This document shows, one piece after another, positions 26,105-26,995 of a stretch of 64,000 bases of DNA. The notes beneath the pieces are model-generated. The model saw only the letters and a program-made list of their open reading frames with translations, was not told the origin of the DNA and searched no databases. The stretch is from an uncultured Alphaproteobacteria bacterium (lineage in GTDB: Bacteria > Pseudomonadota > Alphaproteobacteria > RF32 > CAG-239). The DNA lies in the NCBI GenBank assembly GCA_934254675.1, contig CAKQLP010000003.1:93631-157630 (forward strand), read 5' to 3'. Position numbers and translations under genes: made by a program. Position 1 is the stretch's first letter, and each line of letters opens with the position of its first letter.

Positions 26105-26995
26105 TTATTTCGAAAATTTTATACCGAAACTATTGTCATATCCCCAAACAGAATTAGTATCACAATGCTGTGCCGCCAATGCTGGAGACAAGGGAAGATG
26201 ATTAGCACAAGCACGAAATCCATACCCATCTCTATGGCCTATATCCGTACATCCTTTAGGGGCATAATATTCTAAAAATCCATCAAATTTTCCAGACATA
26301 AAACCAATATTAATAGCTACAAGACCAGAAGCAGAATTTCCCCAATCTGCGGTTGCTAAAGCAATGCATCCTTCTTTTGTAATATTTAAAAAATTGATAT
26401 AAAAACTCTTTCCATATCCAATAATACCAACAGGAGAGCCAAAAACATTTGTAATGTCTGTATAATCTCCATTTCCACTGGTTTTTAGGTCATCAGGAAC
26501 AATTCCCATTTGCACAGCGGTTGTGTTATCGAGACCGTTAAAGTCTTTTTGCTGCATATATAAGGTTTGAATATTTGTTATTATTTCGGTAATTTGCTGT
26601 TTTGTTTTATTAATTTTATATGTTTCCATGGCTTTGGAGTAACCGGCAATTCCACCAACGGACAGGACGCCGATGATGGCGAGGACGCCGAGCATTTCAA
26701 TCATGCTTCGTCCGCACTGCATGCCATCTACTAGGAATTTTTGCGCTCGTGTACCTCTTTTGTACACGTCGCTTAAAAATCCCGTCGTATCTGGCGCACA
26801 TTGTGGACGAAGGTTGTTATGGTCATACTCGGGCGTGACGGACAGTCTGTCCCGAGTATCCAAAGAAGAGTGTTCATAATGGATTCTCGGAATAAATCCG
26901 AGAATGACGTTTGCAAGGTGTTTTGCATGGATTCTCGGAACAAGTCCGAGAATGACGGAGAATAGGGCATTCCGTTCCGACTCAAATTTTTTCAA
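26105..26995 (-). CDS. type IV pilin-like protein, paralog 2. The ORF as drawn runs through the upstream palindromic repeat, so the true start is probably near 26740-26765.
   Basis: Conserved G|RSMIEMLGVLAIIGVLSVGGIAGYSKAM with Glu+5 and Tyr+24. Candidate starts are GTG (leader VYKRGTRAQKFLVDGMQCG) or ATG (MQCG). The upstream 95 codons are translated palindromes. Confidence 0.6.
   Translation of the reverse strand: MKKFESERNALFSVILGLVPRIHAKHLANVILGFIPRIHYEHSSLDTRDRLSVTPEYDHNNLRPQCAPDTTGFLSDVYKRGTRAQKFLVDGMQCGRSMIEMLGVLAIIGVLSVGGIAGYSKAMETYKINKTKQQITEIITNIQTLYMQQKDFNGLDNTTAVQMGIVPDDLKTSGNGDYTDITNVFGSPVGIIGYGKSFYINFLNITKEGCIALATADWGNSASGLVAINIGFMSGKFDGFLEYYAPKGCTDIGHRDGYGFRACANHLPLSPALAAQHCDTNSVWGYDNSFGIKFSK

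What the first reader, a model, noticed from the sequence alone, without database searches (positions are those of the whole stretch)
26105..26995. Four-member paralog family of type IV pilin-like genes with an invariant prepilin N-terminus and unrelated C-terminal domains
The four genes are at 3539-4261 (+), 26105-26995 (-), 49311-50189 (-) and 53059-54054 (-). All encode G|RSM(I/L)EM(L/F)GVLAIIG(V/I)LS(I/V)GG(I/M)AGY(S/T)KAM. Relative to the predicted prepilin-peptidase site this gives Glu at +5, a hydrophobic helix of about 20 aa and Tyr at +24, which is the type IV pilin / pseudopilin signature. The +1 residue is Arg rather than the usual Phe/Met, which is unusual for an N-methylated pilin. 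Downstream of about residue 35 the four proteins share little sequence, with 170-200 aa variable domains. A conserved 5' end with diversified 3' domains is the architecture seen in pilin antigenic-variation families, or in minor pilin sets with distinct tip functions. No PilD, PilB/C or secretin gene is in the window.
Basis: partly seen in the sequence, partly recalled or inferred. Interest (0 to 1): 0.75.

Follow-up and report, generated by a model that had tools for sequence, protein, structure and literature searches.

The report
Phase-variable gut-bacterium pilin gene family
The four genes belong to a very large family of type IVb-like pilus subunit genes in an uncultured human-gut alphaproteobacterium; three of them are switched on or off by gain or loss of one CT unit near the start codon and carry an unusually long, patchwork leader that must be read through to make the pilin.

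Summary
The shared G|RSM(I/L)EM... N-terminus is real: it occurs exactly four times against 0 expected. The proteins are type IV pilins of the IVb class. g26 passes Pfam PilS_N and Bundlin, the family profile hits BfpA in the PDB (E 1.5e-13), and the AlphaFold models match PilS, TcpA and CofA.

The C-terminal domains are not unrelated; they form two subfamilies (g26/g53 and g3/g49). A PilT/PilB-superfamily ATPase lies next to g53.

The pilin frame stays open from the tract to G|R. Over 25 loci and 10,140 nt it has 0 stops, against 148 and 240 in the other frames. All three window copies are (CT)7, which is out of frame.

In other gut samples the same loci are identical except for one CT unit, (CT)6 (in frame) versus (CT)7. 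One such pair is at the window's own g49 position, over 1,316 nt. This is slipped-strand phase variation, as in H. pylori oipA or Neisseria opa.

The 70-260-aa leader is a mosaic of in-frame palindromic cassettes that are reshuffled between strains. g3 instead has a structured, riboswitch-like RNA leader with no Rfam match. No prepilin peptidase, platform protein or secretin was found.

The parts
27055..27096 (-). g26 switch: ATG (27096-27094), MKNKLSKG codons, (CT)7 tract (27072-27059), then an in-frame TAA (27057-27055). This is the OFF state.
   Evidence: A promoter-like TTAAGA-16-TATAAT lies at 27147-27120, and the FadL terminator at 27203-27179.
26711..27058 (-). g26 leader region in the pilin frame (116 codons, no stops). 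It holds two hairpin-A units, one interrupted hairpin-B unit and proximal palindromic cassette Y, and ends in the Gly(-1) codon (26713-26711).
   Evidence: Differs from the ENA assembly of the same locus only by in-frame indels of 6, 9 and 12 nt.
26105..26710 (-). g26 mature pilin (201 aa plus stop), type IVb class, subfamily 1.
   Evidence: Pfam PilS_N 3e-11 and Bundlin 3.8e-10, both above cut-off. AF2 pLDDT 85.4. Foldseek top hits are PilS, TcpA and CofA.
50249..50290 (-). g49 switch: ATG (50290-50288), (CT)7 tract (50266-50253), TAA (50251-50249). This is the OFF state.
   Evidence: The same position is (CT)6 and in frame in L038, (CT)7 in L028 and (CT)8 in L031 and L033.
49923..50252 (-). 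g49 leader in the pilin frame (110 codons, no stops): hairpin A, hairpin B and palindromic cassette X (about 125 nt).
   Evidence: RNA fold z = -7.75.
49311..49922 (-). g49 mature pilin (203 aa plus stop), subfamily 2 with a Cys-rich tail.
54153..54194 (-). g53 switch: ATG (54194-54192), (CT)7 tract (54170-54157), TAA (54155-54153). This is the OFF state.
   Evidence: The same position is (CT)8 in L028. A promoter-like site with an extended -10 lies at 54260-54231.
53749..54156 (-). g53 leader in the pilin frame (136 codons, no stops): two hairpin-A units, two hairpin-B units and palindromic cassette Z.
53059..53748 (-). g53 mature pilin (229 aa plus stop), subfamily 1.
   Evidence: Homologous to g26 over its full length. 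Bundlin hit is below cut-off.
3317..3538 (+). g3 structured 5' leader RNA: multi-hairpin domain, terminator-like hairpin at 3483-3502 followed by a T-run, and an anti-SD CUUCC that can pair with the SD GGGAG. No (CT)n tract.
   Evidence: (z = -6.0).
3539..3640 (+). g3 leader peptide (34 aa, starting at an ATG with RBS AAAGGGAG) ending in Gly(-1).
3641..4261 (+). g3 mature pilin (206 aa plus stop), subfamily 2. The gene is absent from a related strain.
   Evidence: Empty site in L027.
55712..56668 (-). Secretion-superfamily ATPase (318 aa, PilT-sized), first gene of a conserved ATPase-190aa-206aa-g53 arrangement. Its link to the pilins is inferred from position only.
   Evidence: PF00437 8.8e-33. 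Below all NCBIfam cut-offs. Best PDB match PilT 2.4e-20. Synteny kept in 6 strains.

Best explanation
The four genes are paralogues of a very large, fast-evolving family of type IVb-class major-pilin genes in an uncultured, prevalent human-gut alphaproteobacterium.

Each gene is a self-contained expression unit scattered among housekeeping genes. g26, g49 and g53 are contingency loci. Transcription starts upstream of an RBS and ATG. Eight codons later (MKNKLSKG) comes a (CT)n tract.
- When n is a multiple of 3 (most often 6), translation continues through a 70-260-aa basic leader into the pilin.
- When n is 7 or 8, the ribosome meets a TAA within 1-4 codons and the pilin is not made.

Slipped-strand mispairing during replication changes n, so each paralogue flips ON or OFF independently. 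All three window copies are (CT)7, which is OFF.

The leader is built from palindromic DNA cassettes: hairpins A and B, and the 100-125-nt cassettes W, X, Y and Z, which share a (A/G)TGTAC-N7-GTACA(T/C) tip. These cassettes are shuffled, stacked and even frame-shifted between strains, yet never contain a stop. So the constraint is that the leader be translatable, not that it have a particular peptide sequence.

Inferred, not shown:
- The leader stays cytoplasmic and is removed at G|R by a prepilin peptidase encoded elsewhere in the genome.
- In the OFF state the untranslated, strongly folding leader RNA helps keep the gene silent.

g3 has no tract and no cassettes. It has a normal 34-aa leader and is preceded by a structured RNA with a terminator and anti-SD alternative pairings, which suggests riboswitch- or attenuator-type control.
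For: Pilin identity:
- g26 scores above cut-off for Pfam PilS_N and Bundlin.
- The family profile hits BfpA 1zwt (E 1.5e-13) and PilS 1q5f.
- The AF2 model (pLDDT 85.4) has only type IVb pilins as significant Foldseek hits.
- Mature lengths of 201-229 aa fit type IVb (PMC3927602).

Switch:
- The module is present at 3 of the 4 genes and nowhere else in the window.
- The pilin frame is open 118-142 codons upstream to the tract, while the other frames have 5-11 stops.
- Over 25 loci and 10,140 nt, stops number 0 versus 148 and 240.
- Tract lengths of 4, 5, 6, 7 and 8 are seen in DNA, and 3, 6, 9 and 12 are implied by in-phase proteins.
- Within one species (ATPase 100% identical), the same position carries (CT)7 or (CT)8.
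- Two ON/OFF pairs are otherwise identical: L027 (CT)6 versus L034 (CT)7 over 430 nt, and L038 (CT)6 versus L028 (CT)7 over 1,316 nt at the g49 position.

Leader is translated:
- Indels between assemblies of the same locus are 6, 9 and 12 nt.
- In L026 a 1-nt deletion is compensated by a 1-nt insertion 45 nt later.
- Allele P0025 has a 110-aa cassette-containing leader behind an ordinary RBS and ATG, with no tract.
- Leaders are net basic (+5 to +16) and have no segment as hydrophobic as alpha1-N.
- Promoter-like sites occur only upstream of the ATG.

Leader shuffling and RNA structure:
- At one chromosomal position the mature pilin is 98% identical across strains (g49 position) or 82% (g53 position), while the leader is only about 55%.
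- The g49 leader RNA folds with z = -7.75.
Against: - No prepilin peptidase, platform protein or secretin was found in the window or in roughly 110 kb of related sequence. So cleavage at G|R and pilus assembly are inferred.
- The generic prepilin N-methylation models score just below cut-off (TIGR02532 15.0 versus 16.3; PF07963 11.9 versus 21.2).
- To my knowledge, leaders of 70-260 aa are unprecedented for prepilins (the type IVb norm is 15-30 aa).
- (CT)7 is strikingly dominant. It accounts for 17 of 27 unique module sequences and is identical at the g26 position in five assemblies. None of the loci sampled without regard to phase was in frame. So switching may be slow, or the ON state may be selected against in bulk populations.
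- Some cassettes contain in-frame ATG or GTG codons 15-25 codons before G|R, and these could act as alternative starts.
- No expression or protein data exist.
Confidence: 0.72

Rival explanations
1. The pilins are translated from internal start codons inside the proximal cassettes, giving ordinary 15-30-aa type IVb leaders. Candidates are the X cassette ATG (MNFLRQRKTALDAPLHAVSSG|), the Y cassette GTG and the Z cassette GTG. On this view the upstream ATG-(CT)n ORF is a regulatory upstream ORF. Translating it through the hairpins controls access to, or transcription of, the downstream start, rather than producing a giant prepilin.
For: - In-frame ATG or GTG codons lie 15-25 codons before G|R in X, Y and Z, and the resulting leaders would be basic and of type IVb length (PMC3927602).
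- The GTAC hairpin overlaps those codons.
- (CT)7, giving the short ORF MKNKLSKGLSLSL*, is by far the commonest state.
Against: - The W cassette and the short '...HKVMQCG|' leaders offer no plausible internal start with a basic leader.
- No RBS-like sequence precedes the internal codons, and there is no promoter-like site inside the leader.
- An upstream ORF that merely needs to be translated would not have to stay in the pilin frame all the way to G|R, yet it does in 25 of 25 loci.
- When n = 6 the fused protein is made anyway.
Confidence: 0.15
2. Most copies are silent donor cassettes or decaying pseudogenes, as with Neisseria pilS. On this view variation arises by gene conversion into one expressed locus, and the CT-length differences are neutral polymorphism or assembly noise.
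For: - All three tract-bearing window copies are out of frame, as was every locus sampled without regard to phase.
- Leader cassettes clearly recombine between paralogues, giving stacked Z+X+Y arrangements and hybrid Z/Y cassettes.
- g3 is present in some strains and absent in others.
Against: - Every copy has its own promoter-like region, RBS, ATG and complete N-terminus, and an intact mature ORF.
- The mature pilin is conserved at each position across strains, 98% at the g49 position.
- In-frame alleles were recovered on several independent contigs (P0021 on 4 contigs, the P0047 cluster with 6 members).
- The ON/OFF pairs differ by exactly one repeat unit in otherwise identical DNA.
- Zero stops in 10 kb of leader is not the pattern of decay.
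Confidence: 0.07
3. The (CT)7 and (CT)8 alleles are expressed without any DNA change. Programmed ribosomal frameshifting (+2/-1 on the CUCUCU run next to the stop codon) or transcriptional slippage would set a fixed low ratio of pilin to short peptide.
For: - A perfectly repetitive CU tract allows tRNA re-pairing after a 2-nt shift.
- A stop codon follows immediately after the tract.
- (CT)7 is strongly conserved.
Against: - No canonical slippery heptamer or downstream stimulator lies at the usual spacing.
- (CT)7 and (CT)8 would need shifts of different size and sign.
- DNA-level in-frame alleles exist and are sufficient to explain expression.
Confidence: 0.04
4. These are not pilus subunits. 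They would be T2SS-type pseudopilins, or an unrelated family of N-terminally anchored membrane proteins that is never cleaved.
For: - No peptidase, platform protein or secretin was found.
- The N-methylation motif models score below threshold.
- Arg at +1 is atypical.
Against: - Profile and fold matches are to the globular domains of type IVb major pilins, not only to the N-terminal helix.
- At about 200 aa the size fits type IVb pilins.
- Conservation stops exactly at G(-1), whether the leader is 11 aa (L012), 34 aa (g3) or 260 aa. That is the signature of a processing site.
Confidence: 0.04

Closest known systems
Helicobacter pylori outer-membrane protein genes with 5' CT dinucleotide repeats (oipA/hopH, and from my own knowledge sabA, sabB, hopZ and babB)
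   Same: A (CT)n tract sits in the 5' coding (signal or leader) region. Repeat number sets the reading frame, giving ON/OFF switching by slipped-strand mispairing (PMC10564699). Several paralogues are switched independently.
   Different: The products here are type IVb-like pilins, not beta-barrel OMPs. The tract is followed by a 70-260-aa mosaic leader rather than directly by the mature protein. The host is an uncultured gut alphaproteobacterium, and the family is far larger.
Neisseria opa gene family, with (CTCTT)n in the leader-peptide coding region (own knowledge)
   Same: A dispersed multigene family of surface proteins. Each copy has its own promoter, and each has a pyrimidine repeat in the leader-coding region that toggles the frame. 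Most copies are OFF at any one time.
   Different: The Neisseria repeat is a pentamer, not a dinucleotide, and Opa proteins are OMPs. Neisseria pilin variation itself uses a different mechanism, pilE/pilS gene conversion.
Type IVb major pilins: BfpA (EPEC bundlin), PilS (S. Typhi and R64), TcpA (V. cholerae), CofA/LngA (ETEC)
   Same: G(-1), Glu+5, a hydrophobic alpha1-N, a mature length of about 200 aa, a non-Phe +1 residue and a type IVb globular fold. Pfam and PDB profile hits support homology.
   Different: In known systems there is a single pilin gene inside a dedicated 10-14-gene operon, with a 13-30-aa leader. Here there are many scattered paralogues, Arg at +1, leaders of up to about 260 aa, and no adjacent machinery apart from one PilT-sized ATPase.
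Rickettsia palindromic elements (RPEs), palindromic repeats inserted in frame into ORFs (own knowledge)
   Same: Palindromic DNA cassettes lie inside an open reading frame, preserve the frame and are translated as part of the protein.
   Different: RPEs are scattered through many unrelated genes. These cassettes occur only in pilin leaders and seem to spread by recombination among paralogues. The segment that carries them is probably cleaved off.
Neisseria pilE/pilS antigenic variation and the R64 PilV shufflon
   Same: Diversification of pilus proteins through many variant sequences sharing a common N-terminal part.
   Different: There are no promoterless silent cassettes, no single expression site, no clustered invertible segments, and no recombinase gene in the window.

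Membership tests
Type IV pilin / prepilin (class III signal peptide) | Gly at -1, Glu at +5, and a hydrophobic helix of about 20 aa directly after the cleavage site | tested here: met
   In the 96-sequence alignment, G-1, R+1, S+2 and M+3 are at least 90% conserved and E+5 is invariant.
Type IV pilin / prepilin (class III signal peptide) | Match to curated N-terminal methylation motif models (TIGR02532, PF07963) | tested here: inconclusive
   TIGR02532 scores 15.0 for g26 against a cut-off of 16.3, and 10.4-10.7 for g49 and g53. PF07963 scores 11.9 against 21.2. These are just below threshold, probably because of R+1 and S+2.
Type IV pilin / prepilin (class III signal peptide) | Pilin fold: a long N-terminal alpha1 helix packed on an antiparallel beta-sheet | tested here: met
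Type IV pilin / prepilin (class III signal peptide) | Processing by a prepilin peptidase (Peptidase_A24) and N-methylation of residue +1 | not testable with these tools
   No A24 domain in the window or in the gene tables of related loci. The rest of the genome could not be scanned.
Type IV pilin / prepilin (class III signal peptide) | Assembly machinery in the genome (ATPase, T2SSF platform protein, secretin) | tested here: inconclusive
   One PilT/PilB/GspE-superfamily ATPase at 55712-56668 next to g53. No T2SSF or secretin was seen in about 110 kb.
Type IVb pilin subclass | Sequence homology of the globular domain to BfpA/PilS (PF05307, PF08805) | tested here: met
   g26 scores 44 and 40.6 bits against cut-offs of about 22. 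The family profile hits 1zwt at E 1.5e-13. g53 is below cut-off alone but homologous to g26. g3 and g49 are linked by fold only.
Type IVb pilin subclass | Mature length of about 180-200 aa and a non-Phe residue at +1 | tested here: met
   Mature lengths are 201, 203, 206 and 229 aa, and +1 is Arg. Criteria are from PMC3927602.
Type IVb pilin subclass | Leader peptide of about 15-30 aa | tested here: not met
   Leaders of in-phase alleles are 113-207 aa, and the longest pre-G|R extension among all called proteins is 259 aa. g3 has 34 aa and L012 has 11 aa.
Slipped-strand (simple-sequence-repeat) phase-variable contingency locus | A simple repeat inside the 5' coding region, whose unit is not a multiple of 3 | tested here: met
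   (CT)7 lies 24 nt after the ATG in g26, g49 and g53.
Slipped-strand (simple-sequence-repeat) phase-variable contingency locus | Repeat-number polymorphism between otherwise identical alleles that toggles the reading frame | tested here: met
   L027 (CT)6 versus L034 (CT)7. L038 (CT)6 versus L028 (CT)7 over 1,316 nt. (CT)7 versus (CT)8 at syntenic positions within one species.
Slipped-strand (simple-sequence-repeat) phase-variable contingency locus | High-frequency reversible switching within a clonal population | not testable with these tools
   Only consensus assemblies are available. The dominance of (CT)7 neither proves nor excludes it.
pilE/pilS-type gene-conversion antigenic variation | Promoterless, 5'-truncated silent cassettes plus one expression locus | tested here: not met
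   All copies have promoter-like sites, an RBS, an ATG and the full N-terminus.
Shufflon (R64 PilV/Rci) | Clustered invertible C-terminal segments flanked by sfx repeats, with an adjacent rci recombinase | tested here: not met
   The genes are dispersed over 50 kb. No integrase or recombinase domain was found in the window ORFs scanned or in the gene tables of the syntenic loci L022 and L023.
RPE-like in-frame palindromic elements | Palindromic repeats inserted in frame in ORFs | tested here: met
   Hairpins A and B and cassettes W, X, Y and Z all lie in the open leader frame.
RPE-like in-frame palindromic elements | Dispersal through many unrelated genes | tested here: not met
   BLAST of the leader regions against the 64-kb window finds no copy outside pilin 5' regions.

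The most novel reading that the evidence does not exclude
The prepilins of this bacterium are really made with cytoplasmic leaders of 100-260 aa that are assembled from a private vocabulary of in-frame palindromic DNA cassettes. The cassettes would be selected at the nucleic-acid level, either as an RNA lock that silences the gene when the (CT)n switch is OFF, or as recombination handles that move 5' control modules among dozens of pilin paralogues. The only protein-level demand would be that they contain no stop codon, because the whole segment is discarded by the prepilin peptidase. Together with the uncharacterised riboswitch-like leader on the tract-less copies, this would be a new architecture for surface-antigen variation in a commensal.
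Probability: 0.35. Interest if true: 0.85.

Novelty: new variant of a known kind. Interest (0 to 1): 0.72.

Why it matters
Type IVb pili are known almost only from enteric pathogens, where they act as colonisation factors encoded by one pilin gene in one operon (TCP, BFP, CFA/III, Longus, S. Typhi PilS).

Here a prevalent, uncultured human-gut alphaproteobacterium, seen in Hadza and other cohorts, carries about one type IVb-like pilin gene per 15-25 kb. Each has its own ON/OFF repeat switch. That points to an Opa- or Hop-style immune-, phage- or niche-evasion strategy in a commensal, built on pilus subunits.

It also matters for annotation. Gene callers start these genes at arbitrary TTG or internal ATG codons, or even inside the mature pilin (the source contig's gene call starts at MIEML). 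The family carries no name in any source, so both the switch and the family are invisible in current annotation.

The giant translated leader made of palindromic cassettes is not described for prepilins. If it is real, it tests how much cargo a prepilin peptidase substrate can carry. The pilin-associated structured RNA is a candidate new cis-regulator.

Tried and rejected
1. I suspected that R+1 and S+2 were a by-product of the right arm of the palindromic cassette (CTTCGTCC...GGACGAAG). I rejected this because g3 (GGG CGC TCA) and L012 (GGA CGT TCT) keep G-R-S with other codons and have no cassette.
2. I considered that hairpins A and B were generic genome-wide REP elements. I rejected this for the window because there are no copies outside pilin 5' regions.
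3. I considered the TTG at 26995, 50189 or 54054 as the real start. I rejected it because the codon is TGG in several alleles and has no RBS.
4. Rfam searches found nothing but the tRNA at gathering thresholds on the whole window, and nothing at E up to 10 on the g3 leader.
5. Scans of genome contigs and metagenome contigs with the module sequence gave only 4 and 8 loci, mostly at contig ends, so tract statistics had to come from the look-up of encoding contigs.
6. At the g26 position all five assemblies are (CT)7, so that locus gave no ON/OFF evidence.
8. A homologue search with the g49 globular domain found only 4 relatives, so the MSA for that model is shallow.
9. Literature searches for the motif, for gut RF32 pili and for phase-variable type IVb pilins found nothing relevant.
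10. No source gives these proteins a name.
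Full report
**1. The observation**

The four ORFs exist and share the segment G|RSM(I/L)EM(L/F)GVLAIIG(V/I)LS(I/V)GG(I/M)AGY(S/T)KAM. A degenerate back-translation of its first 15 residues matches exactly four times in the 64-kb window, and never in 100 dinucleotide-preserving shuffles.

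- The starts at 26995, 50189 and 54054 are simply the first TTG after a stop codon. The same frame stays open further upstream.
- The C-terminal domains are divergent but not unrelated. g26 and g53 align end to end (34% identity, E 4e-30) and share the tail LP(L/V)SPAxAAxxC. g3 and g49 share a Cys-rich tail, GD(K/R)YC..NCL(K/R)(D/N)L..I(S/T)xLC. So there are two subfamilies of two genes.
- The window does contain a secretion-superfamily ATPase, two genes upstream of g53 at 55712-56668(-). It hits PF00437 at 8.8e-33 and is PilT-sized, but it scores below every NCBIfam cut-off, and its best PDB match is PilT at 2.4e-20.

No Peptidase_A24, T2SSF or secretin domain occurs in any window ORF. The other neighbours are housekeeping genes: DsbD, FtsB/DivIC, two FadL genes, TolB, RuvX, Lon, MnmA, SSB and others.

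**2. What the proteins are**

- g26 scores above Pfam's gathering thresholds for PilS_N (44 bits) and Bundlin (40.6 bits), the two type IVb pilin families.
- A profile of 96 family members hits the solved structures of EPEC BfpA (1zwt, E 1.5e-13) and S. Typhi PilS (1q5f) through their globular domains.
- An AlphaFold2 model of g26 (pLDDT 85.4, pTM 0.80) has significant Foldseek matches only to type IVb pilins: PilS 3fhu, TcpA 8uhf and 3hrv, and the ETEC type IVb pilin 9iuf.
- Mature lengths of 201-229 aa fit the type IVb class, which has mature lengths of 180-200 aa and leaders of 15-30 aa (PMC3927602).
- The generic N-methylation motif models score just below threshold, plausibly because of R+1 and S+2.
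- Conservation starts exactly at G(-1), whatever precedes it. That is 11 aa in L012 (MNNYKYEEQSG|RSM), 34 aa in g3, and up to about 260 aa elsewhere. This is the behaviour of a processing site.
- G-R-S is encoded by different codons in g3 and L012, so Arg+1 is a protein-level constraint.

**3. Where it comes from**

- The g26 protein is 100% identical to a gene call on a human-gut metagenome scaffold (ERZ28615586).
- The ATPase is 100% identical in 184 blocks of the collection, including many Hadza samples.
- The only named genome hits are gut MAGs. Three of the four loci come from one MAG labelled Alphaproteobacteria bacterium, and the fourth from a Hadza gut MAG labelled uncultured Eubacteriales.
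- The family is very large. More than 7,400 clusters at 90% identity pass E 0.001, and that search hit its candidate cap. None has a name in any source.
- Density is about 4 genes per 64 kb here, and 5 per 127 kb on a Hadza contig.

**4.

g26, g49 and g53, but not g3, share a conserved upstream module. It consists of a promoter-like region, AAGAGGAAAGAAAG, ATG AAA AAT AAG CTC AGC AAA GGT, a (CT)7 tract, and then G TAA ATCCTAAACATTCGATTTCAGAGCG...

- In the ATG frame the ORF ends at that TAA (MKNKLSKGLSLSL*).
- The pilin frame is open from inside this short ORF all the way to G|R, for 118-142 codons. The other two frames contain 5-11 stops over the same stretch.
- Removing one CT unit, or adding two, fuses the ATG to the pilin.
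- Both wrong frames hit a TAA within 1-4 codons of the tract (CTG TAA, or TGT AAA TCC TAA).
- Over 25 independent loci with module plus pilin, 10,140 nt in all, the pilin frame has 0 stops. The other frames have 148 and 240.

**5. Evidence that the tract length varies and toggles the frame**

- Public homologues include many that start MKNKLSKG-(LS)n-VNPKHSISERF..., with n corresponding to (CT)3, 6, 9 and 12. (CT)6 is by far the commonest.
- At the DNA level, tracts of 4, 5, 6, 7 and 8 units occur, with a mode of 7.
- Within one species (identical ATPase) the g53 position is (CT)7 in six genomes and (CT)8 in one. The g49 position is (CT)7 in four genomes and (CT)8 in two.
- Two pairs of loci from different samples are identical apart from one CT unit:
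  - L027, (CT)6 and in frame (393-aa protein P0021), versus L034, (CT)7, over 430 nt.
  - At the window's own g49 position (M15 peptidase | pilin | RuvX), L038, (CT)6 (395-aa P0047), versus L028, (CT)7, over 1,316 nt spanning promoter, leader and the whole gene.

This is the classical signature of slipped-strand-mispairing phase variation. The closest precedents are the CT-repeat switch of H. pylori oipA (PMC10564699) and, from my own knowledge, the CTCTT repeats in the leader region of the dispersed Neisseria opa family.

A caveat applies. (CT)7 dominates (17 of 27 unique module sequences), it is the same at the g26 position in five assemblies, and none of the loci sampled without regard to phase was in frame. 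Consensus assemblies hide minority variants, so the switching rate is unknown.

**6. The leader**

Between the tract and G|R lies a mosaic of cassettes.
- There is a conserved segment of about 90 nt.
- There are one to three 48-nt hairpin-A units (ATTCTCGGAnTTnTTCCGAGAAT, translated as VILGFIPRIH).
- There are hairpin-B units (ACTCGGGTCACGCCCGAGTATGAC, translated as LDTRVTPEYD).
- Other REP-like units occur, such as one translated as CHPRAWLLARPEDLDSRVKPEND.
- Next to the pilin, there are one to three copies of a 100-125-nt imperfect palindrome in four variants, W, X, Y and Z. All four have a (A/G)TGTAC-N7-GTACA(T/C) tip.

Properties of the cassettes:
- They occur nowhere else in the window.
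- The g49 leader RNA folds far better than shuffles (z = -7.75).
- Different strains carry different cassette combinations at the same chromosomal position, while the mature pilin is conserved. Mature identity is 98% at the g49 position and 82% at the g53 position, against about 55% for the leader.
- Hybrids and stacks (Z/Y, X+Y, Z+X+Y) show recombination among paralogues.

The frame is always preserved.
- The window and the ENA assembly of the same locus differ only by indels of 6, 9 and 12 nt.
- Allele P0025 has a 110-aa cassette-bearing leader behind an ordinary RBS and ATG, without any tract.

So the constraint is on translatability, not on peptide sequence. In-phase leaders are 113-207 aa, net basic (+5 to +16), and lack any segment as hydrophobic as the pilin alpha1-N. 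That is compatible with a cytoplasmic extension that is removed at G|R. On the pilin strand, sigma-70-like promoter matches lie only upstream of the ATG, not inside the leader.

**7. g3**

g3 has no tract and no cassettes. It has a good RBS, an ATG and a 34-aa leader.

It is preceded by a structured element of about 220 nt (3317-3538). The element ends in a terminator-like hairpin (3483-3502) followed by a T-run, and its fold z-score is -6.0.

Four diverged versions of this element are held. Each sits directly upstream of a pilin gene, and nhmmer finds the element nowhere else in about 450 kb of held DNA.

RNAalifold finds 12-18 compensatory pairs. These include a co-varying anti-SD/SD pairing (CUUCC with GGGAG, versus UCCGC with GCGGA), and the anti-SD has an alternative partner in the 3' arm of hairpin 3. 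No Rfam family matches. This is a candidate riboswitch or attenuator, and only partly followed up.

g3 is also absent from a related strain. There DsbD and DivIC are 85 nt apart, and the spacer resembles the 3' end of g3.

**8. Mechanism, and what is shown versus inferred**

Shown in silico:
- pilin homology and fold
- the (CT)n tract and its length polymorphism
- the frame logic
- the stop-free mosaic leader
- strain-to-strain cassette shuffling

Inferred:
- Slipped-strand mispairing is the mutational process.
- The fused long precursor is made and is cleaved at G|R by a prepilin peptidase encoded elsewhere.
- Pili are assembled, perhaps using the neighbouring ATPase.
- The folded untranslated leader reinforces the OFF state.

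Rivals are an internal start with a regulatory upstream ORF, silent cassettes or pseudogenes, programmed frameshifting, and a non-pilin membrane protein. Each is listed with its evidence. None explains the 25-of-25 in-frame continuity together with the one-unit ON/OFF pairs as well as the main explanation does.

**9. Novelty**

Each ingredient is known: type IVb pilins, SSR phase variation of surface-protein families, and in-frame palindromic elements. What appears undescribed is their combination.
- a very large dispersed type IVb-like pilin family in a gut commensal
- individual CT-repeat switches on each gene
- leaders up to ten times the normal prepilin length, built from private palindromic cassettes
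- an unclassified structured RNA on the tract-less copies

No paper in the searchable library holds the motif. I rate it a new variant of a known kind. The main open gap is the missing machinery, which could not be looked for outside about 110 kb.

Noticed in passing
window 3317-3538 (+); also L014 2773-3004, L035 2268-2504, L012 1023-811 (-): A conserved structured RNA of about 220 nt lies directly upstream of tract-less pilin genes. It has several hairpins with compensatory changes, a terminator-like 3' hairpin, and a co-varying anti-SD/SD alternative pairing. There is no Rfam match. It is a candidate new riboswitch or attenuator.
   Followed up: partly
window 54307-56668 (-): The arrangement of PilT-sized secretion ATPase, a 190-aa unknown, a 196/206-aa membrane protein with an FxLYD domain, and then pilin g53 is conserved in six other strains. 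Whether it is a minimal pilus-related operon is unknown.
   Followed up: partly
window 3280-4262 versus L027 1458-1543: g3 with its RNA leader is present in this genome but absent from a Hadza strain. There DsbD and DivIC are separated by 85 nt whose end resembles the 3' end of g3. This suggests deletion, or replacement of a pilin cassette.
   Followed up: partly
L026 1-700: Cassette Z carries a 1-nt deletion and a compensating 1-nt insertion 45 nt downstream. As a result the same DNA is translated as LMLCVNAPHFWNDVYKRG instead of LDVVCQCAALLERRVQSG. The frame is kept but the peptide is not.
   Followed up: yes
L023-L025 versus window 26105-27096: At the FadL|pilin|DUF2142 position other strains carry an allele (P0017) that is only 62% identical to g26. 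Its proximal cassette is a hybrid of Z and Y, joined at the GTAC hairpin.
   Followed up: partly
window 22698-25545 (-): A GT2/GtrA-domain glycosyltransferase and a DUF2142 membrane protein (a gtr-like glycosylation pair) lie next to g26, separated from it by a 105-aa secreted coiled-coil ORF (25721-26038). A possible role in surface or pilin glycosylation was not examined.
   Followed up: no
L035 2118-2150 and 2200-2270: An orphan hairpin-A copy and a 33-nt tandem duplication (AATCTTTACATTTTTCTGTGCTTAAATTAATCT, two copies) sit in the promoter region of a MYKNFLC-type pilin gene.
   Followed up: no
L027 9830-9905: A tRNA gene and its terminator lie immediately upstream of the in-phase (CT)6 pilin allele P0021.
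   Followed up: no
window 35129-40229 (+): A BatA-D-like cluster (DUF4381, VWA, VWA/TPR, BatD) lies between the pilin loci. It appears unrelated to the finding.
   Followed up: no
L005, L007, L008, L010, L011, L012 (contig ends): Many metagenome contigs end inside the conserved (CT)n module. The multi-copy 5' module breaks short-read assemblies, so pilin paralogue counts in MAGs are probably underestimates.
   Followed up: no
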